28,877 bases of DNA from Gammaproteobacteria bacterium (GTDB taxonomy: Bacteria; Pseudomonadota; Gammaproteobacteria; Pseudomonadales; Azotimanducaceae). The notes under the pieces were generated by a model. That model did no database searches and was not told the DNA's origin. It worked only from the letters and a program-made list of their open reading frames with translations. Both the position numbers and the translations under genes were made by a program. Shown one piece after another: positions 15,618 through 22,452 of the stretch. The stretch's first letter is position 1; each line of letters starts with the position of its first letter. The stretch spans positions 1 through 28,877 of the forward strand of contig JAPUFN010000238.1 of NCBI GenBank assembly GCA_027293665.1. The letters run 5' to 3'.

Positions 15618-15869
15618 CTAGTTAACACTCTCGAGTCGATGGGTCCGCCGGTGCTTGAGCTCGTTCGCCTGAACCATTCTGTTTTTAATGATTTTCTGCA
15701 CGACCATCACGGTCGTCCAGTCATGCAGCATGAGGCGTCGGCAGCTGTCGCATTCGGCTTGCCGGGAATGCGCCACCAGCCGCAGCAGCTCGCTATAAGG
15801 CAGTCGTGAGATGTGATTGCAGTGCGAACATTCCAGGCCCACTGCGGGGTCGATACCAACGTAGTCCAT
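15618..15869 (-). CDS. Small putative zinc-ribbon protein (Cx2C-x22-Cx2C), 83 aa
   Basis: CSHC and CDSC pairs; AGGAAAAGGA upstream; fills an otherwise empty gap between ptrB and the CoA-transferase gene. Confidence 0.7.
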   Translation of the reverse strand: MDYVGIDPAVGLECSHCNHISRLPYSELLRLVAHSRQAECDSCRRLMLHDWTTVMVVQKIIKNRMVQANELKHRRTHRLESVN

Positions 15870-15966: not shown

Positions 15967-17184
15967 CTATGACGGGAGTTGCCTCCGCAAGCTCTCGCGG
16001 AACTCAGGCGCCGCAATATCGAGTAGAGCCTGCGCGCGCGCCCGAACCGGCAGATCTGCAATCTGCGCAACTCCGTACTCGGTCACCACCGTGTCGATAT
16101 CCGTACGCAGCGCGGTCACCATCAGCGTCTGTGGAACAATTCTGGAGACCGTTCCGCCGCGCGCGGTTGCCTGCATCGCAATGATGGAACGCCCGCCCGA
16201 CGAGGCCCTCGCAGCGCGCATGAAGTCCACTGAGCCACCCGTACCCGAAAGTTGCCGGCCGTTCGCAAACTCTGCATTGAGCTGACCGTAAAGGTCTATC
16301 TCCAGAGCGGAATTGATCGAGACGAACTGCGGAATCTGCCTGATCACTGCGACTTCATGAGTGTAGTCCGCGCCTTTGAAGACGACGGCCGGCGTGTCGG
16401 CAAGCCACTCGATGAGCCGGTGGGAGCCAAGCGCCATCCCGGTCACATGCTGCTCCCGGTCGATGGGTTTGTTCTTGCCTGTGACATTACCGGCGTCGAT
16501 GAGCGCCATGCCGCCATCATCGAGCAACCCACCGTGCAGGCCCAGATCGTTGCGTTGCGTTAACGCCGCAAGGATCGCCGCCGGGATGGCACCGATGCCG
16601 GTCTGTATGCAATCACCATCGGCAATCAAGCCAGCCACGTGATGGCCAATCTGCCGGGCGGTTGCATCGATCACCGGCGGTGGCAGCTCGAACAGCGGAC
16701 GCTGCGATTCCACGAGGTAGTCGATCTGTGCTGCGTCGAGTTCGGGGCATCCCGGCGGCGCGACAAAACTGCGATTTACCTCCACCATGAGTATTTTGGC
16801 ACAGCCGAGAACGGCAGCCGCGTAGTCCACGTTCGGTCCGAGGCGCAGCGTGCCCGCGGCATCGTACGCGGCCTGCAGCATGGCAACATCAATGTCCTTT
16901 GAGAGGTAGTCGAACACCCTGCGCATCTGCTTCGGCAAAAAATTGAGCCTGGCAGGATCTGCATCTTTGAGGTGCGAGGTCATAAAAAAGGTCGTGAAGC
17001 GGCTGGTCTCGTCGAGCGCCGTGAAATCCGTCCGGTTATAACCACCCAGCGGGAACTGCACGAATTCCAGATCAGCCGGCAGTGGCTGCTGGCTCAGCTC
17101 ATCAACCAGTGCGGTGGGTTCGTTGACGCTGCCAGCCACGAATATCCGCTGACCGCTTTTGAGGTAGTTACTCAATTCAGCCAC
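15967..17184 (-). CDS. Acetyl-CoA hydrolase/transferase (family I CoA-transferase) homologue
   Basis: Motifs LGPNVDY, CIQTGIGAIP, NSALEIDLYGQLN, SGTGGSVDF and DTVVTEYGVA. GGAG lies 8 nt before GTG 17184 (the ORF-track start 17217 is also possible). Confidence 0.9.
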   Translation of the reverse strand: MAELSNYLKSGQRIFVAGSVNEPTALVDELSQQPLPADLEFVQFPLGGYNRTDFTALDETSRFTTFFMTSHLKDADPARLNFLPKQMRRVFDYLSKDIDVAMLQAAYDAAGTLRLGPNVDYAAAVLGCAKILMVEVNRSFVAPPGCPELDAAQIDYLVESQRPLFELPPPVIDATARQIGHHVAGLIADGDCIQTGIGAIPAAILAALTQRNDLGLHGGLLDDGGMALIDAGNVTGKNKPIDREQHVTGMALGSHRLIEWLADTPAVVFKGADYTHEVAVIRQIPQFVSINSALEIDLYGQLNAEFANGRQLSGTGGSVDFMRAARASSGGRSIIAMQATARGGTVSRIVPQTLMVTALRTDIDTVVTEYGVAQIADLPVRARAQALLDIAAPEFRESLRRQLPS

Positions 17185-17308
17185 GCAACAGGCTCCGAAC
17201 TGTGCCAGCTGAGGCAAAGGTGTCAGTAGTGTTTGTCATTTCCAGCCATTACTCCCAAAAACCGTGACCGAAGTGCGAGAATCGCAGTCACGCAAGCATA
17301 TTGTGACG

Positions 17309-18178
17309 ATGATTCACGGCAACTTACAGGACCTGTGCGATCTGCTGACGGTGACGCGCACGGCTGCCGGGATGTTTCTCGGTGGCCAGCCGCTCGAGGA
17401 TCGCTATCGGGTTTATGGTGGCCAGTTTCTCGGCCAGGGGCTGCTGGCTGCGTGCTGGGATCAGCCGTACCCGGCACACTCGCTGCATGCCATATTCCTG
17501 CGTCCGGGTACGCCTGATACGCCAATCGAGTACCGGGTCCAAAACCCCGATCCCACGCTTACTCCGACAAGCCTGCGCACAGTCAGCGCCCGGCAAAATG
17601 GCAGGGAGCTGTTCCTGATGGACGTGGTGCTCGCCGATTTCGTTCCCGCGGATCCGCAGGCAGCCATGAAGCTTGCCGGACCCGACAAGGCGATACCCAG
17701 GGAGGAAGGCATCCGGCATCTGGCTACAAACACCCAGGCCAGCTGGGCAAACGCCGACTCGCCATTCGACAATCGCTTCGTCGAAAACATCTGGCGTGAC
17801 GACTACAACCAACCCGGCCACCATGTCTGGTTCCGCACGCGTGGGTCACAGCCCACTTCTGCAACAGCCGGGCTGACCGCACAGCAGATGCGGCAGGCGG
17901 TCCTTGCGTACTATGTTGACGACACCATCATGGACAATGCGCTTTTTCCCGGTGGCTGGCTGACCAGCTGGGACACGCTGGAAACCGCGAGTCTGGATCA
18001 TTGCATGTGGTTTCATCAGGATTACCACTACGACGAATGGCTGCTGCACGATCAGGACAGCCCCGTGGCCGCACACGGCCGCGGCCTGACTCGTGCAACG
18101 GTCTACACCGAAGACTGGCGACCGGTCGCATCGTCGTATCAGGAGATCCTGATGCGGCTCAGTGCAGCGCAACCGTGA
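17309..18178 (+). CDS. Acyl-CoA thioesterase II (TesB-like, double hot-dog)
   Basis: Motifs RVYGGQFLGQ, AHSLHAIFLRPG, AYYVDD (Asp), ASLDHCMWFH, W.L..Q.SP.A..GRGL and QE. The start is uncertain (GTG 17264 is in frame). Confidence 0.9.
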   Translation: MIHGNLQDLCDLLTVTRTAAGMFLGGQPLEDRYRVYGGQFLGQGLLAACWDQPYPAHSLHAIFLRPGTPDTPIEYRVQNPDPTLTPTSLRTVSARQNGRELFLMDVVLADFVPADPQAAMKLAGPDKAIPREEGIRHLATNTQASWANADSPFDNRFVENIWRDDYNQPGHHVWFRTRGSQPTSATAGLTAQQMRQAVLAYYVDDTIMDNALFPGGWLTSWDTLETASLDHCMWFHQDYHYDEWLLHDQDSPVAAHGRGLTRATVYTEDWRPVASSYQEILMRLSAAQP

Positions 18179-21100
18179 GCTCAGCTGTATTTCATTCGAG
18201 TGTGCAGAACTGGTTCAGCCGGGAGTTCCCAGGCCCTACGAGTGTCCAGAGTCAGAGCTGGCCGCTGATCGCAGACGGGGCACATGTCCTCATCACGGCG
18301 CCCACCGGCAGCGGTAAAACGCTCACGGCATTTCTGTGGTCCCTCAACCAGTTTGCCACCGGCGCCTGGTCACCCGGCCACACGAGTGTTGTATACATCT
18401 CACCACTCAAAGCGCTCAACAACGATATTCAGCGCAACCTGTTAAGCCCACTCAGCGCGCTTAGAGAGGTTGCCGGCTACCCCCGGATCAACGTCCAGAC
18501 TCGCTCGGGCGACACCCCGCAAAGCGAGCGTCAGCGTATGTTGCGCCGGCCGCCCGAAATCCTGATCACCACGCCAGAGAGCCTTTCGTTGTTGCTGACA
18601 ACGCACAAAGGCCGGCAGGCGCTGACCCAGGTAAAAACGGTGATACTCGATGAGATTCATTCGATCGTCGATAACCGGCGCGGCGTCCAGCTCATGACCT
18701 CGCTGGAGCGCCTGGTGGATCTGGCGGGTGAATTTCAACGCATCGCGCTCTCGGCAACCGTGAATCCACTATCGGTGATCGCAGCATATGTCGGTGGCTT
18801 CAGCGCAGAGGGGCGGCCGAGAAAGGTTGCGATCGTGGAAGCGCCACAAGACAAGGTCATCGATTTCAGAGTCCGGTTTCCAGAAGCCGCGCGACACGCC
18901 GCAGAGAATGGCGAAAAAATCTGGGCGCCGCTGGCGGACAGCTTTCGCGACATCATCGATGCCAATCAGTCGACGTTGTTTTTCACGAACTCACGCCGGC
19001 TTGCAGAGAAGATCACCCTGCAGATCAACGATGACCGGATCGCACCAGTTGCGTATGCCCACCATGGATCGCTCGCCAGAGACATTCGCACGGAAGTTGA
19101 AAGCCGACTGAAGGCGGGCGAGCTGCAGGCAATTGTCGCCACAAATTCGCTTGAAATGGGTATCGACATCGGCCATCTCGATGAAGTGGTACTGGTGCAA
19201 TCACCACCTTCGGTTGCCTCGACACTGCAGAGGATTGGCAGAGCGGGTCACCAGGTAGGCGAAACAAGCGTGGGCACGCTCTATCCAACACACGCGCAGG
19301 ATTTTCTCGAAGCCGCCGTGCTGTCACAGGCCGTTGCCGAACGCGATATCGAACCTCTGACACCCATGACGAATGCACTCGATGTGCTCGCGCAGATAAT
19401 TATCTCGTGTTGCGCCAACGAAACCTGGGAAGTTGCTGCGCTCTGGGCCCTTATTACGCGCAGCACGCCCTACCGAAACCTGCCGCGGCAGCAGTTTGAT
19501 CTCGTGATTGAGATGCTGACCGGCCGCTACTCGGGATCCAGAGTCAGAGAACTGAAACCGCAGCTGGCCTTCGACCGAATTGCGCAAACGCTCAAAGCGA
19601 ATAAAAGTGCCCTGTTTTCGCTCTACAACTCCGGCGGTACCATTCCGGACAGAGGCTACTACAAGCTGCGTCACGCAGATTCAGGTGCGGTGATCGGCGA
19701 ACTCGACGAAGAGTTCGTCTGGGAAGCCCGCATCGGCCAGACCTTTACGCTCGGCACCCAGAGCTGGCAGATTCAGCGCATCACCCACAATGATGTGATG
19801 GTTACAACCGCGCGGCCAGGCGCGCACGTCCCACCATTCTGGCGTTCGGAGATGGCCAGCCGCAGTTTCCACTTCTCCGAAAAAATTGCTCAGTACCTGG
19901 AACTGGCAGAAACGCAGCTGGCCGGGCGCAAAGAGGCTGAACTGCAACAGGATCTGGAATCCGATCGCGGCTTTGAAGCCACGGCGGCAGAAGAACTCAC
20001 CGCATACCTCGTAAGCCAGCGCGCAGCGACTCGCACTCTGCCACACCGCCACCACCTCCTCATCGAACAGGTTAACGCCGGGCCCGGCGGGTACCGCGGT
20101 CCCGACGGGATTTCCCAGCTGGTATTACACACGTTCTGGGGCGGCCGCCTGAACCGGCCCTGGGCGCTCGCGCTAGCGGCCGCCTGGCATGACCAGTTTG
20201 CAAGCACGCCGGAAATGCATGCCGACAACAACACGATCGTCATCCAGGCCAGCGAGTCGATCGAACCGGCCAAGCTCCTGGCGCTTGTGAATTCCGGCAA
20301 TCTGCAGGCATTGCTTCGCGCTTCCCTTGAACAGTCCGGCTTTTTCGGCGCCCGCTTCCGCGAGTGTGCAGGCCGCTCGCTGCTGCTTACCCGGCAGCGT
20401 TTCAACCAGCGGCTGCCACTGTGGATGAGCCGCTTGCAGGCGAAAAAACTGATGACTTCGGTCGCAGGCTATTCGGATTTCCCCATCCTGCTGGAAACCT
20501 GGCGTACCTGCCTCGTCGACGAGTTCGATCTCGCTGCGCTCGGCGCTATGCTCGACGAGTTGCGCGATGGACAAATCAGCTGGTCACACGTCACGACAGC
20601 AGCGCCCAGCCCGTTTGCCGCGAATGTCACGTTCGACCAGATAAGCCGGTACATGTATGCCGATGACTCACCGACCCGAGCGGGTTCCAGCTCACTTTCC
20701 GATGAGCTCATCGCAAACGCCATCGCCAACGAGTCACTGCGGCCAAAGCTGAGCCCGGAGACAATCGAGGAATTCCTCAGCAAGCGCCAGCGACGCCTGG
20801 CGGGCTACGAACCGGCAACCAGTGAGGACTGGCTAGAGTGGCTCAAGGAGCGGGTATTCATTCCGCAGCACGAACTGAGCGAGGCGCAAACTCACGAGTC
20901 AGAGATTCCGTTCGGTAAATTTGCAACGCTTAACCGCGGATCCCGCACATGGTTTACCCATCCTGAACTGCTCCACTCCCTGCAGGATTGTGGGCTCATC
21001 ACCAACGACATGTTCGACCACCCTGCCGCCGAGGTCATCGACGCGCGCACGGCTGAACAGTTCGCCCAGGAATTTCTGTCCTTCTACGGGCCGCTGAGCA

Positions 21101-22452
21101 CAGTGCAGATTGAAGCACTGCTGCCGTTCGTACCGGCTGGTCTGCTGGACGACGACGAAGCATTCATCTGCGGTCAACTTGTGGCCGATGACGCGACAAC
21201 TTACTACTGCAATCTGGACAACTTCGAAATTCTTCTACGCTTCCAGCGGGCCAGATCGCGACCTGCTGTCGAAGCTCGCAGCGTCTCCGGATTACCTGGC
21301 TTCATCGCCACCTGGCAGCGCTTCGGGCAGGTAAATTCCGCCACCGCCATTAACGAGACGCTACTGTCCTTGCGCGGTTGGCGGGCGCCACCGGGCATCT
21401 GGTTGCAGGACCTGTTCGCTGCGCGATTTCCGGCCTTTTCTGCCCACCATCTCGATACCGCGCTTGCGGATCTGCAGCTCAGCTGGTTCGGCTGCGGACG
21501 CGAATCCGTGAGCGTGGGATACCCGGAGGACGCAGACCTTGTGAGCCCGGCCGGTGTAAGTTCGTTGCGCGAAATGTTCGTGGATCCCAACGCGCGCTAC
21601 ACGTTTTTCCAGCTCGCCGATCGGCAGGATGCAGGGCTCGATACGTTCAACGAGCTGTGGTGGAACAGTATCTGGGCGGGTGAGCTGATCGCGGATTCGC
21701 TGCAACCACTGCGCCAGGGTCTGGCGCGCAACTACTCGTTTACCGGCACATCCAGTCTTAGCACACGCAGGCAAACGAGTCGGCGCGCTGCGCGCACGAA
21801 GAGCCAGGGCTGGGGTGGCAACTGGTCTGTGAGAACTCCGCGCGAGCAGGAAGTCGACCCACTGACGCGACTGGAAGATGAAAAGGAGTGCGCCCGGTTG
21901 CTGTTGGACCGGTACGGGTTCGTCTGCCGGGAACTGGCGAATCGCGAAGGCGGCGAGTTGAAATGGTCGCGCGTGTTCAAGGCGCTGCGCACGATGGAAC
22001 TCGCAGGGGAAGTGTTCGCGGGCTATTTCTTCGAGGGTCTTTCTGGTCCGCAGTTCATCTCACCCGCCGGATTGAATCTATTCCAGCGCAACGACGCGCC
22101 GCCGGCAGCATACTGGGTCAACGCGCTCGATCCGGTCTCGCCCTGTGGTCTGGGGCTGGGAAGCGATACTCTGCCGCAGCGCAGGGCCGCAAACTATCTA
22201 TCCTATCTTGGTCACGAGCTTGCACTCATCACCGAAAATCTCGGTCGCCGGTTGACGTTTCACGTGCCACCGGATCATGCATCGATTCTGCAGGTGGTCG
22301 CCGTGCTCAGTTATCTGGTCACGACCCACAAACGTCTCCACGTAGATACCATTAACGGCGAACCCACGCGCAGCAGTCCCTATCTGGAAGTGCTCACACA
22401 GGTCCTGAAGCCAGTGAAAGACCACAAGCAGATTTACTTCGAACTGCCTTAG
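18175..22452 (+). CDS. lhr: Full-length Lhr ATP-dependent SF2 helicase (core plus C-terminal winged-helix/HTH_42-like domain), about 1425 aa
   Basis: Motifs APTGSGKT, YISPLKALNNDI, TTPESL, DEIH, SAT, FTNSRR, ATNSLEMGIDIG, QRIGRAGH, GGTIPD and PFW. CTD motifs LLDRYGFVCRE and GYFFEGLSGPQF. The GTG start overlaps the tesB-like stop (GTGA). Confidence 0.93.
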   Translation: MSSAVFHSSVQNWFSREFPGPTSVQSQSWPLIADGAHVLITAPTGSGKTLTAFLWSLNQFATGAWSPGHTSVVYISPLKALNNDIQRNLLSPLSALREVAGYPRINVQTRSGDTPQSERQRMLRRPPEILITTPESLSLLLTTHKGRQALTQVKTVILDEIHSIVDNRRGVQLMTSLERLVDLAGEFQRIALSATVNPLSVIAAYVGGFSAEGRPRKVAIVEAPQDKVIDFRVRFPEAARHAAENGEKIWAPLADSFRDIIDANQSTLFFTNSRRLAEKITLQINDDRIAPVAYAHHGSLARDIRTEVESRLKAGELQAIVATNSLEMGIDIGHLDEVVLVQSPPSVASTLQRIGRAGHQVGETSVGTLYPTHAQDFLEAAVLSQAVAERDIEPLTPMTNALDVLAQIIISCCANETWEVAALWALITRSTPYRNLPRQQFDLVIEMLTGRYSGSRVRELKPQLAFDRIAQTLKANKSALFSLYNSGGTIPDRGYYKLRHADSGAVIGELDEEFVWEARIGQTFTLGTQSWQIQRITHNDVMVTTARPGAHVPPFWRSEMASRSFHFSEKIAQYLELAETQLAGRKEAELQQDLESDRGFEATAAEELTAYLVSQRAATRTLPHRHHLLIEQVNAGPGGYRGPDGISQLVLHTFWGGRLNRPWALALAAAWHDQFASTPEMHADNNTIVIQASESIEPAKLLALVNSGNLQALLRASLEQSGFFGARFRECAGRSLLLTRQRFNQRLPLWMSRLQAKKLMTSVAGYSDFPILLETWRTCLVDEFDLAALGAMLDELRDGQISWSHVTTAAPSPFAANVTFDQISRYMYADDSPTRAGSSSLSDELIANAIANESLRPKLSPETIEEFLSKRQRRLAGYEPATSEDWLEWLKERVFIPQHELSEAQTHESEIPFGKFATLNRGSRTWFTHPELLHSLQDCGLITNDMFDHPAAEVIDARTAEQFAQEFLSFYGPLSTVQIEALLPFVPAGLLDDDEAFICGQLVADDATTYYCNLDNFEILLRFQRARSRPAVEARSVSGLPGFIATWQRFGQVNSATAINETLLSLRGWRAPPGIWLQDLFAARFPAFSAHHLDTALADLQLSWFGCGRESVSVGYPEDADLVSPAGVSSLREMFVDPNARYTFFQLADRQDAGLDTFNELWWNSIWAGELIADSLQPLRQGLARNYSFTGTSSLSTRRQTSRRAARTKSQGWGGNWSVRTPREQEVDPLTRLEDEKECARLLLDRYGFVCRELANREGGELKWSRVFKALRTMELAGEVFAGYFFEGLSGPQFISPAGLNLFQRNDAPPAAYWVNALDPVSPCGLGLGSDTLPQRRAANYLSYLGHELALITENLGRRLTFHVPPDHASILQVVAVLSYLVTTHKRLHVDTINGEPTRSSPYLEVLTQVLKPVKDHKQIYFELP

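What the first reader, a model, noticed from the sequence alone, without database searches (positions are those of the whole stretch)
15967..17184. Family I CoA-transferase homologue with the catalytic glutamate replaced by glycine
Seen: the segment reads NDLGLHGGLLDDG; the Gly codon GGG is at 16530-16528 on the minus strand. Established: 4-hydroxybutyrate CoA-transferase-type enzymes have DLG(I/V)H(S/T)E(M/L), whose Glu (E238 in Clostridium aminobutyricum AbfT, from memory) forms the glutamyl-CoA thioester. The other CoA-binding motifs (GIG.IP, GGSVDF, NSALEID..GQ) are intact and the ORF is unbroken. Inference: it cannot use the canonical ping-pong mechanism. It may be an acyl-CoA binding or sensing protein, or use different chemistry such as direct transfer or hydrolysis. 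I recall other homologues with H-S-G, so this may be an uncharacterised subfamily rather than a unique mutation.
Basis: partly seen in the sequence, partly recalled or inferred. Interest (0 to 1): 0.62.

Follow-up and report, generated by a model that had tools for sequence, protein, structure and literature searches.

The report
Glutamate-less CoA-transferase-like enzyme (ThnP-type)
This gene encodes an intact, strongly conserved relative of CoA-transferases that lacks the glutamate those enzymes work with; it belongs to a very large, almost unstudied branch whose one tested member (ThnP) moves CoA between the two acid groups of a single molecule.

Summary
Window 15967-17184(-) encodes a 405-aa Cat1/4-hydroxybutyrate-CoA-transferase homologue. 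Gly219 (GGG, 16530-16528) sits in the column of the catalytic Glu of 3eh7, RipA and AarC.

It is not a one-off mutation. All 120 closest homologues have Gly there, as do 121 of the 147 nearest full-length 50%-identity cluster representatives. Across 72 loci the states are G+H in 54 and E+N in 18, with no mixed state. The CoA-binding motifs and the external oxyanion-hole Gly are kept. dN/dS is 0.10, and the AlphaFold model has pLDDT 96.7 and TM 0.9 to AbfT and RipA.

A published precedent exists. ThnP (PMC11659651, 2024) is a Cat1 enzyme with the same Glu-to-Gly change and is an intramolecular CoA-transferase on a dicarboxylyl-CoA.

More distant Glu-less homologues often sit beside family III CoA-transferases, acyl-CoA dehydrogenases, hydratases and PrpD- or CitE-like genes. 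The window's own orthologues stand alone.

Best reading (about 45%): a nucleophile-free, substrate-assisted intramolecular CoA-transferase whose substrate is unknown. I could not fetch the ThnP sequence, so shared ancestry with ThnP is untested. The scan has noted the same motif before on other DNA.

The parts
15967..17184 (-). Gene for the 405-aa Glu-less Cat1-type CoA-transferase homologue (P0001), stop codon included
   Evidence: Translation. Pfam PF13336, E 4e-49. PDB phmmer hit to 3eh7, E 5e-67. AF2 pLDDT 96.7. Foldseek TM 0.90-0.92 to 4n8i, 2oas and 3gk7. dN/dS 0.10 against L038.
16528..16530 (-). GGG codon of Gly219, in the column of the catalytic Glu (AbfT E238, RipA E249, AarC E294)
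   Evidence: Invariant Gly in 121 Glu-less representatives.
16357..16359 (-). CAT codon of His276, in the column of the internal oxyanion-hole Asn (AarC Asn347). It is preceded by Thr275.
   Evidence: His in 96% of the Glu-less clade, Asn in 100% of canonical relatives. G+H in 54 loci, E+N in 18, no mixed state.
16582..16599 (-). GIGAIP (residues 196-201), part of the QxGhG flexible CoA-contacting loop, retained
   Evidence: G196 invariant and G198 at 98% or more. The loop is described in PMC11659651.
16222..16239 (-). GGSVDF (residues 316-321). Gly317 corresponds to AarC Gly388, the external oxyanion hole, and is retained.
   Evidence: Role of Gly388 from PMC4876117.
16270..16278 (-). N303-A-E305 of the GQxNxE motif. 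Asn303 is typical of the clade: 93% in Glu-less relatives and a minority residue in canonical ones.
   Evidence: This motif was the pattern used.
17193..17196 (-). GGAG Shine-Dalgarno-like sequence 8 nt upstream of the GTG start at 17184
15618..15869 (-). Conserved small (83 aa) Cys4 protein gene immediately downstream on the same strand (P0272). It may be co-transcribed. No family match.
   Evidence: Homologues lie downstream of the orthologue in L013, L014, L017, L018, L023, L024, L063 and L076. No terminator-like site lies between the genes.
17264..18178 (+). TesB-type acyl-CoA thioesterase II gene, divergent from the Cat1 gene. The neighbourhood is lineage-specific.
   Evidence: Pfam PF02551 and PF20789. 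The same arrangement is seen only in the 92%-identical relative L038. It is absent from the other orthologous loci.

Best explanation
P0001 is a functional enzyme of the Glu-less branch of the Cat1 (4-hydroxybutyrate/butyryl-CoA:acetate) CoA-transferase family. It most likely works as ThnP does, as an intramolecular CoA-transferase that moves CoA from one carboxyl group to the other within a dicarboxylic (or tricarboxylic) acyl-CoA.

Proposed mechanism, which is inferred and not shown. The retained CoA-binding loops and the external oxyanion hole (Gly317 NH) hold the thioester. The substrate's own free carboxylate takes the place vacated by the missing glutamate side chain (Gly219) and attacks the thioester carbonyl. 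This gives a cyclic anhydride plus enzyme-held CoA thiolate. The thiolate then re-attacks the other carbonyl. The internal oxyanion hole, needed only for the glutamyl intermediates, has been rebuilt (Asn to His276, with Thr275 and Asn303) into a polar pocket for the second carboxylate or the anhydride.

The physiological substrate of the window's orthologue group is unknown, because its genomic context is uninformative.
For: Shown:
- Gly219 occupies the catalytic Glu column.
- The change is invariant in a large clade: 121 of the 147 nearest 50%-cluster representatives and all 120 close homologues.
- It is coupled to Asn-to-His at the internal oxyanion-hole column: G+H in 54 loci, E+N in 18, no mixed state.
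- The external oxyanion-hole Gly, the QxGhG loop, GGxxDF and TE(Y/H)G are kept.
- The gene is under purifying selection, dN/dS 0.10.
- The fold is confidently Cat1: pLDDT 96.7, TM 0.9.
- A tree in which all Glu-less representatives form one clade is not rejected and is the better of the two trees compared (p-AU 0.83). This is compatible with one origin.

Published: ThnP is a Cat1-subgroup enzyme with Gly at the same position. [quoted passage not shown] An internal-anhydride mechanism was proposed for it (PMC11659651).

Context in more distant Glu-less homologues. Within three genes lie acyl-CoA dehydrogenase (12 of 54 loci), enoyl-CoA hydratase (10), a genuine family III CoA-transferase (9 of 54, against 0 of 18 for canonical relatives), PrpD/MmgE (6), and in one annotated locus an HpcH/CitE-type lyase. 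This fits di- or tricarboxylyl-CoA pathways that already have their own intermolecular transferase. An earlier scan note (e1-5228620) records the same pairing.
Against: - No assay exists for this protein or its orthologue group.
- The ThnP sequence could not be fetched, so a shared origin of the Gly (and a His at column 276 in ThnP) is inferred, not tested.
- The window's orthologues lack the dehydrogenase or family III transferase neighbours. They sit between an Lhr helicase and a prolyl oligopeptidase, so nothing points to a dicarboxylate substrate here.
- The orthologue group has its own signature (H-G-G, D222) that differs from the H-S-G majority.
- ThnP's own mechanism is a proposal. Its authors also considered a displaced Glu269, which has no conserved equivalent here.
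- The neighbour counts come from related genomes and are not independent.
Confidence: 0.45

Rival explanations
1. Acyl-CoA hydrolase. With the glutamate gone, a water molecule occupies the cavity, His276 activates it, and the thioester is cleaved with no CoA transfer.
For: His276 is a plausible general base and is 96% conserved in the clade. From my own knowledge, the Glu-to-Asp mutant of glutaconate CoA-transferase becomes a hydrolase (Mack and Buckel), so the fold can support hydrolysis. Source databases name homologues 'acetyl-CoA hydrolase', but only by family. AarC-N347A places a water at the Asn site (PMC4876117).
Against: ThnP alone produced no observable conversion, that is no mass change, of its CoA thioesters, which behaved as an equilibrium of isomers. 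Frequent co-location with a family III CoA-transferase and beta-oxidation genes would make hydrolysis wasteful. In the window and in L038 a dedicated TesB thioesterase lies next door, so a second hydrolase would be redundant.
Confidence: 0.15
2. Intermolecular CoA-transferase without a covalent enzyme intermediate. Acyl-CoA and a free acid bind together and exchange CoA through a mixed anhydride formed directly between the two acids (ternary-complex mechanism).
For: All CoA-binding elements, the mobile QxGhG loop and the external oxyanion hole are kept. Gly219 would leave room for the carboxylate of a second substrate. The stand-alone context of the window's orthologues does not call for a dicarboxylate.
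Against: ThnP showed no intermolecular transfer with acetyl-CoA or succinyl-CoA as donors. Gene clusters holding Glu-less homologues often already encode a family III transferase. I found no precedent for this mechanism in family I in the papers searched.
Confidence: 0.15
3. Non-catalytic CoA or acyl-CoA binding protein (pseudoenzyme) that acts as a sensor or a regulatory or scaffolding subunit, possibly with the conserved small Cys4 protein encoded downstream.
For: Both the nucleophile and its buttressing Asn are lost. The window's orthologues sit in a non-metabolic neighbourhood with a conserved small Cys4 partner gene. Earlier scan notes read Glu-less Cat1-like domains fused to acetyltransferases as CoA-sensing modules (e1-5132271 and others; unchecked).
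Against: The replacement residues are themselves nearly invariant across a very old clade: Gly 100%, His 96%, Thr275 91%, Asn303 93%. That looks like a rebuilt active site, not relaxed decay. The external oxyanion hole is kept. One Cat1 enzyme with the same Glu-to-Gly change (ThnP) is catalytically active. More distant homologues are embedded in enzyme operons.
Confidence: 0.12

Closest known systems
ThnP (N47_E41340) of the sulfate-reducing naphthalene-degrading culture N47, an intramolecular CoA-transferase (PMC11659651)
   Same: Family I, Cat1 subgroup. Catalytic Glu replaced by Gly (G238 in ThnP, G219 here). QxGhG loop retained. About 400-420 aa, single chain. Other Glu-less homologues, like ThnP, lie next to acyl-CoA dehydrogenases.
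   Different: ThnP sits in a catabolic operon beside ThnO, whereas the window gene has no dehydrogenase neighbour. ThnP's discussed Glu269 has no conserved counterpart here. The host here is a Pseudomonadales MAG, not a sulfate reducer. The substrate is unknown.
4-hydroxybutyrate CoA-transferase AbfT (3gk7), Shewanella 2oas, P. gingivalis 3eh7 and 3d3u, Yersinia RipA (3qli, 4n8h-l)
   Same: Same fold over the whole length (TM 0.90-0.92, 30-34% identity). Same CoA-binding motifs, external oxyanion hole and TE(Y/H)G glutamate.
   Different: These enzymes have H-[ST]-E with the catalytic Glu, and Asn at the internal oxyanion hole. P0001 has H-G-G and His276. The Gln of GGQxDF is Ser318 here.
AarC, succinyl-CoA:acetate CoA-transferase of Acetobacter aceti (4eu3-4eud, 5ddk; PMC4876117)
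   Same: More distant Cat1-type homologue (E 1e-14, TM 0.8). It served as the mechanistic reference: Glu294, Asn347 and Gly388 map to columns 219, 276 and 317.
   Different: AarC uses the acyl-glutamyl anhydride and glutamyl-CoA ping-pong mechanism. P0001 lacks both Glu294 and Asn347 equivalents.
[quoted passage not shown]
   Same: It performs the same kind of reaction as proposed here: intramolecular CoA shift within a dicarboxylyl-CoA without release of the acid.
   Different: Unrelated fold (family III). It keeps an enzyme Asp nucleophile. This is functional analogy only.
IpdAB-type CoA-transferase-like ring-opening hydrolases (own knowledge; also cited in earlier scan notes)
   Same: Another case of a family I CoA-transferase fold recruited for non-transferase chemistry.
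   Different: Two-subunit Gct/SCOT-type architecture with a relocated catalytic Glu. P0001 is single-chain Cat1-type, with no relocated acid detected.

Membership tests
Class I (family I) CoA-transferase, Cat1/4-hydroxybutyrate CoA-transferase subgroup, as a mechanistic class | Catalytic glutamate in the H-[ST]-E-[ML] motif that forms the acyl-glutamyl anhydride and the glutamyl-CoA thioester | tested here: not met
   Gly219 in that column. No acid is specifically conserved nearby.
Class I (family I) CoA-transferase, Cat1/4-hydroxybutyrate CoA-transferase subgroup, as a mechanistic class | Internal oxyanion-hole Asn (AarC Asn347) that polarises and orients the Glu | tested here: not met
   His276 in that column. 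Asn is 100% conserved in canonical relatives.
Class I (family I) CoA-transferase, Cat1/4-hydroxybutyrate CoA-transferase subgroup, as a mechanistic class | Homology and fold: two alpha/beta domains, PF13336 C-terminal domain, GxGxxP and GGxxDF CoA-binding and external oxyanion-hole motifs | tested here: met
   Pfam E 4e-49. PDB E 5e-67. TM 0.90-0.92. Motifs invariant.
Glu-less Cat1 clade (H-x-G / T-H), ThnP-type | Gly in place of the catalytic Glu | tested here: met
   ThnP G238 as reported in PMC11659651.
Glu-less Cat1 clade (H-x-G / T-H), ThnP-type | Coupled T-H at the internal oxyanion-hole column and Asn in GQxNxE. These features were defined here from the clade, not from the ThnP paper. 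| tested here: met
   T275, H276, N303. Not known for ThnP itself.
Glu-less Cat1 clade (H-x-G / T-H), ThnP-type | Groups with ThnP in a phylogeny | not tested
   The ThnP sequence was not obtainable. The paper's supplement holds only images, and no stored protein has G238 plus E269. A single clade of all sampled Glu-less representatives is not rejected.
Glu-less Cat1 clade (H-x-G / T-H), ThnP-type | Operon partner acyl-CoA dehydrogenase (ThnO-like) or other acyl-CoA pathway genes | tested here: not met
   The window neighbours are TesB, Lhr, a small Cys4 protein and prolyl oligopeptidase. The feature is met only in more distant homologues.
Glu-less Cat1 clade (H-x-G / T-H), ThnP-type | Intramolecular CoA transfer activity with no intermolecular transfer | not testable with these tools
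   Needs an enzyme assay.

The most novel reading that the evidence does not exclude
The H-x-G / T-H clade, to which this gene belongs, may be a widespread and ancient family of nucleophile-free 'carboxyl-swap' isomerases. It would be as diverse as the canonical Cat1 transferases and would span Pseudomonadota, Acidobacteriota, Actinomycetota and Bacillota. In this family the substrate's own carboxylate would replace the enzyme glutamate, and a His-based pocket would replace the internal oxyanion hole. The stand-alone Pseudomonadales orthologue group would then act on a housekeeping dicarboxylyl-CoA rather than in a dedicated catabolic operon, for example by correcting the regiochemistry of methylsuccinyl- or glutaryl-type thioesters.
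Probability: 0.35. Interest if true: 0.65.

Novelty: new member of a known kind. Interest (0 to 1): 0.5.

Why it matters
Automatic annotation calls thousands of these proteins '4-hydroxybutyrate CoA-transferase' or 'acetyl-CoA hydrolase'. None of them can run the class I ping-pong mechanism, so pathway reconstructions that count them as CoA-transferases (for butyrate or 4-hydroxybutyrate, for instance) are wrong.

The strict coupling found here gives a simple sequence rule for separating the two kinds: Glu to Gly together with Asn to His at the internal oxyanion hole. It also gives a concrete mechanistic handle (His276, Thr275, Asn303) for testing how ThnP-type enzymes work without a nucleophile.

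The recurrent pairing with family III CoA-transferases suggests a general two-step logic in dicarboxylate catabolism: first activate the acid, then shift CoA to the correct carboxyl.

Tried and rejected
- Compensating 'DD'. D223 is conserved in canonical enzymes too, and D222 is rare in the clade. Rejected as a substitute nucleophile.
- A relocated Glu like ThnP's E269. No conserved acid at columns 242-255. Column 250 is Met here and hydrophobic in the clade.
- Decaying pseudogene. Rejected by dN/dS 0.10, an unbroken ORF, and orthologues at 50% identity or more in 19 of 24 genomes of the same family.
- TesB thioesterase as a functional partner. The adjacency exists only in the window and its 92%-identical relative.
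- Fetching ThnP. The paper's supplement holds images only. A scan of stored proteins for the G238 and E269 numbering found none.
- Looking for an AarC-type protein in relatives to anchor the numbering. None in 21 relatives. One was found in a class-wide draw and used.
- treekit's own one-clade test did not finish in three runs. It was replaced by an IQ-TREE LG+G4 fast search with an AU test.
- Whether neighbouring acyl-CoA dehydrogenases are glutaryl-CoA dehydrogenase-like, as ThnO is. The best PDB matches are generic FadE-type enzymes, which is not informative.
- Profile search over 200 genomes of the phylum. It mostly recovered canonical H-x-E proteins in long open frames of about 620 aa, so it was not selective for the clade.
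- The promoter and terminator scan found nothing.
- Model coordinates are not exposed, so distances around Gly219 and His276 could not be measured.
- No complex prediction was run, because no binding claim is made.
Full report
**1. The observation**

Window 15967-17184 on the minus strand is an unbroken ORF of 405 codons (P0001). The GTG at 17184 is preceded by GGAG at 17196-17193. The 405-aa length matches the closest homologues at 100% coverage, so this start is preferred over the upstream TTG at 17217.

Residues 212-224 read NDLGLHGGLLDDG.

Pfam finds the acetyl-CoA hydrolase/transferase C-terminal domain (E 4e-49). NCBIfam gives only sub-threshold matches to butyryl-CoA:acetate and succinate CoA-transferase models. 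phmmer against PDB sequences gives 4-hydroxybutyrate CoA-transferases as best matches (3eh7 at E 5e-67, then 3d3u, RipA, 2oas, 3gk7). It aligns 'dlglhggllddg' without gaps to 'dlgihtemfsdg'.

To anchor the mechanistic numbering I fetched an AarC-like protein (L031), aligned it to AarC 4eud, and added it to the family alignment. Gly219 falls in the column of AarC Glu294. Gly317 falls in the column of Gly388, the external oxyanion hole.

**2. A clade, not a mutant**

All 120 best homologues (63-92% identity, mostly Pseudomonadales and other gammaproteobacterial MAGs) carry DLG[LMIF]H[GS]G.

An exhaustive HMMER search of 1.84 billion cluster representatives found 5793 relatives. Among the 147 nearest full-length representatives, the catalytic column is Gly in 121, Glu in 25 and Pro in 1.

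Comparing the two groups column by column shows a coupled set of changes:

| Column in P0001 | Canonical relatives | Glu-less relatives |
|---|---|---|
| 219 | Glu 100% | Gly 100% |
| 276 | Asn 100% | His 96% |
| 275 | Val 52% | Thr 91% |
| 303 | no majority residue (Cys 32%) | Asn 93% |
| 318 (GGQxDF) | Gln 92% | Leu, Gln, Ser or Ala (Ser in P0001) |

The following are equally conserved in both groups: the QxGxG loop, GxGGxxDF, N291, D297, G300-Q301, T368-E369-x-G371 and R383.

In an independent set of 72 loci from named genomes, the states are G+H in 54 and E+N in 18. There is no mixed state.

In a FastTree of 148 sequences the 25 Glu-bearing representatives form one well-supported clade. 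In an IQ-TREE comparison, the tree that holds all 54 sampled Glu-less representatives together against 15 canonical ones plus the AarC outgroup is not rejected. It is the better of the two trees compared (logL -50996 against -51034; p-AU 0.83 against 0.17). This comparison used a fast search under a simple model, so it shows compatibility with a single origin, not proof of one.

**3. The protein is functional**

- dN/dS against the 92%-identical relative (L038) is 0.10, with dS 0.38.
- In the window's own taxonomic family, 19 of 24 genomes searched hold a homologue of at least 50% identity. This includes 12 of 13 genomes of the genus, and the one without a hit is only 57% complete.
- AlphaFold2 on a 100-sequence alignment of Glu-less members gives pLDDT 96.7 and pTM 0.93.
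- Foldseek matches RipA, 2oas and AbfT at TM 0.90-0.92 and 30-34% identity. No solved structure of a Glu-less member appears among the matches.
- The near-invariance of the replacement residues argues for a rebuilt active site, not a decayed one.

**4. No hidden nucleophile**

I scanned for acidic residues conserved only in the Glu-less clade.

D222 occurs in 8% of the clade.
- E305 is acidic in both groups.
- The stretch where ThnP's authors discuss a displaced Glu269 (about 31 residues after the Gly) has no conserved acid. Column 250 is Met here, and is Val, Ala, Met or Ile in the clade.
- Only E22 (85% against 36%) and D364 (81% against 24% Asp, or 83% against 36% counting Asp and Glu) are enriched. 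Their positions relative to the thioester could not be measured, because model coordinates are not exposed.

**5. Published precedent**

A full-text search found one directly relevant paper (PMC11659651, Environ Microbiol 2024). ThnP, from the anaerobic naphthalene degrader N47, is a family I, Cat1-subgroup enzyme in which 'the conserved active glutamate ... is replaced by G238'.

[quoted passage not shown] The authors propose that the substrate's own carboxylate attacks the thioester to form an internal anhydride.

Further searches found no other description of Glu-less Cat1 enzymes. In the passages I read, the authors do not mention the Asn-to-His change. I could not obtain the ThnP sequence, so ThnP's membership of the clade defined here is inferred from the shared Gly and not tested.

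**6. Genomic context**

The window's orthologues (the H-G-G type, in Candidatus Azophilus, Azotimanducaceae, K189A and other Pseudomonadales MAGs) occupy a conserved but metabolically uninformative position.

- An Lhr helicase lies divergently upstream.
- A conserved 83-aa Cys4 protein (P0272, window 15618-15869, no Pfam family) lies immediately downstream.
- A prolyl oligopeptidase lies convergent beyond that.
- A TesB-type thioesterase is inserted between the gene and Lhr only in the window and its closest relative.

More distant Glu-less homologues (33-57% identity) tell more. Within three genes of 54 loci I found acyl-CoA dehydrogenase in 12, enoyl-CoA hydratase in 10, a family III CoA-transferase in 9, PrpD/MmgE in 6 and GntR/UTRA regulators in 4. 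Among 18 canonical loci, none had a family III transferase.

Recurrent arrangements are:

- ACAD, then family III transferase, then the Glu-less Cat1 gene, either directly or after one unannotated gene (Pseudomonadales; L026, L079, L080).
- Family III transferase | ACAD - one further gene - Glu-less Cat1 - hydratase in Caulobacter and Novosphingobium (L107, L122, L130, L132). In L107, the only one of these annotated with Pfam, the further gene is an HpcH/CitE-type lyase and a Rieske oxygenase follows the hydratase. In L122 the ACAD position holds an unannotated gene on the other strand.
- Thiolase - SDR - hydratase - Glu-less Cat1 - ACAD - ACAD - hydratase in Haliea and Halioglobus (L095, L096).
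- PrpD - PrpD - Glu-less Cat1 - GntR in Hyphomonadaceae and relatives (L040, L109, L114, L117, L120, L133).
- Family III transferase plus a B12-binding protein (L036, L037).

The genomes are related and the neighbour labels come from phmmer with a handful of reference proteins, so the counts are descriptive only.

They do fit pathways for di- or tricarboxylic acids that already own a real intermolecular transferase. That is the situation in which an intramolecular CoA shift is useful.

**7. Mechanism, and how sure**

What is shown is a loss of two residues and a retention of the rest. The covalent nucleophile and the residue that serves only the glutamyl intermediates are lost. Everything that binds CoA and stabilises the external (substrate-side) oxyanion is kept.

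From this I infer catalysis in which the substrate's own carboxylate supplies the nucleophile. It would occupy the space freed by Gly219. His276, Thr275 and Asn303 would form the pocket for that carboxylate or for the cyclic anhydride.

From my own knowledge, succinyl- and glutaryl-type CoA thioesters form cyclic anhydrides spontaneously, which makes this chemistry plausible. I did not check that in the library.

| Reading | Weight |
|---|---|
| Intramolecular CoA-transferase | about 0.45 |
| Hydrolase with His276 as base | 0.15 |
| Direct intermolecular transfer through a mixed anhydride | 0.15 |
| Non-catalytic acyl-CoA binder, possibly with the small Cys4 protein | 0.12 |

The remainder is left for something else. 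The main weakness of the best reading is that the window's own orthologue group has no pathway context and carries its own motif variant (H-G-G, D222).

**8. Comparison and novelty**

As a homologue, the protein is a Cat1-type family I CoA-transferase. As a mechanism class it fails two defining features, the catalytic Glu and the internal oxyanion-hole Asn, so it should not be annotated as 4-hydroxybutyrate CoA-transferase or acetyl-CoA hydrolase. It is best filed as a new member of the ThnP-type Glu-less kind.

Three things appear not to be in the literature I could search: the size and age of the clade, the strict Glu/Asn to Gly/His coupling, and the recurrent pairing with family III transferases. 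The scan has met this motif before on other DNA.

**9. Limits**

- There are no model coordinates and no ThnP sequence.
- The trees use fast searches.
- The neighbour annotation is partial.

Noticed in passing
window 15618-15869 (-): An 83-aa protein (P0272) with two CxxC pairs (MDYVGIDPAVGLECSHCNH...CDSC...HDWTT). It has no Pfam family. It is conserved immediately downstream of the Glu-less Cat1 gene in many genomes of the same family, and no terminator-like site lies between the two genes. It may be a partner or a co-transcribed gene.
   Followed up: partly
window 17264-18178 (+): A TesB-type acyl-CoA thioesterase II lies divergent from the Cat1 gene across about 80 bp. This adjacency is present only here and in the 92%-identical relative (L038:2114-3019). 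It is absent from the other orthologous loci, where Lhr lies next to the gene with at most short unannotated ORFs (one of 416-431 aa in L022 and L076) between.
   Followed up: partly
L107:2536-9426; similar in L122, L130, L132: A conserved cluster in Caulobacter and Novosphingobium: family III CoA-transferase | acyl-CoA dehydrogenase - one further gene - Glu-less Cat1 - enoyl-CoA hydratase. In L107, the only locus annotated with Pfam, the further gene is an HpcH/CitE-type lyase and a Rieske oxygenase follows; in L122 the dehydrogenase position holds an unannotated gene. It looks like an undescribed C5-dicarboxylate (methylsuccinate, mesaconate or itaconate-type) route in which the Glu-less protein could play the role that Mct plays elsewhere.
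   Followed up: partly
L109:3232-7949; similar in L040, L114, L117, L120, L133: A recurrent cluster of two MmgE/PrpD-family genes, a Glu-less Cat1 (H-A-G or H-S-G) and, in five of the six loci, a GntR/UTRA regulator, in Hyphomonadaceae and relatives. A family III CoA-transferase lies nearby in L109, L117 and L133. No known pathway could be assigned.
   Followed up: no
L041-L051, L058 (e.g. L042:5899-7848): Many Pseudomonadota carry canonical (H-[ST]-E, V/T-N) Cat1 homologues in open frames of about 610-650 aa, some 200 residues longer than usual. The extra domain was not identified here. Earlier scan notes describe CoA-transferase/GNAT fusions.
   Followed up: no
L030:1280-2746 (-) (G003), with similar hits in G001, G002, G006: Complete genomes of the window's genus also hold a second Cat1 paralogue of about 490 aa with an intact H-T-E motif, but with Leu-Asn (YLLNP) shifted at the Asn column and GGQPDT instead of GGQxDF. 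No such paralogue was found in the 74%-complete window genome.
   Followed up: partly
window 18001-22452 (+): The longest ORF of the Lhr-type helicase starts (TTG 18001) inside the thioesterase gene. The real start is probably near 18180. This is an annotation detail only.
   Followed up: no
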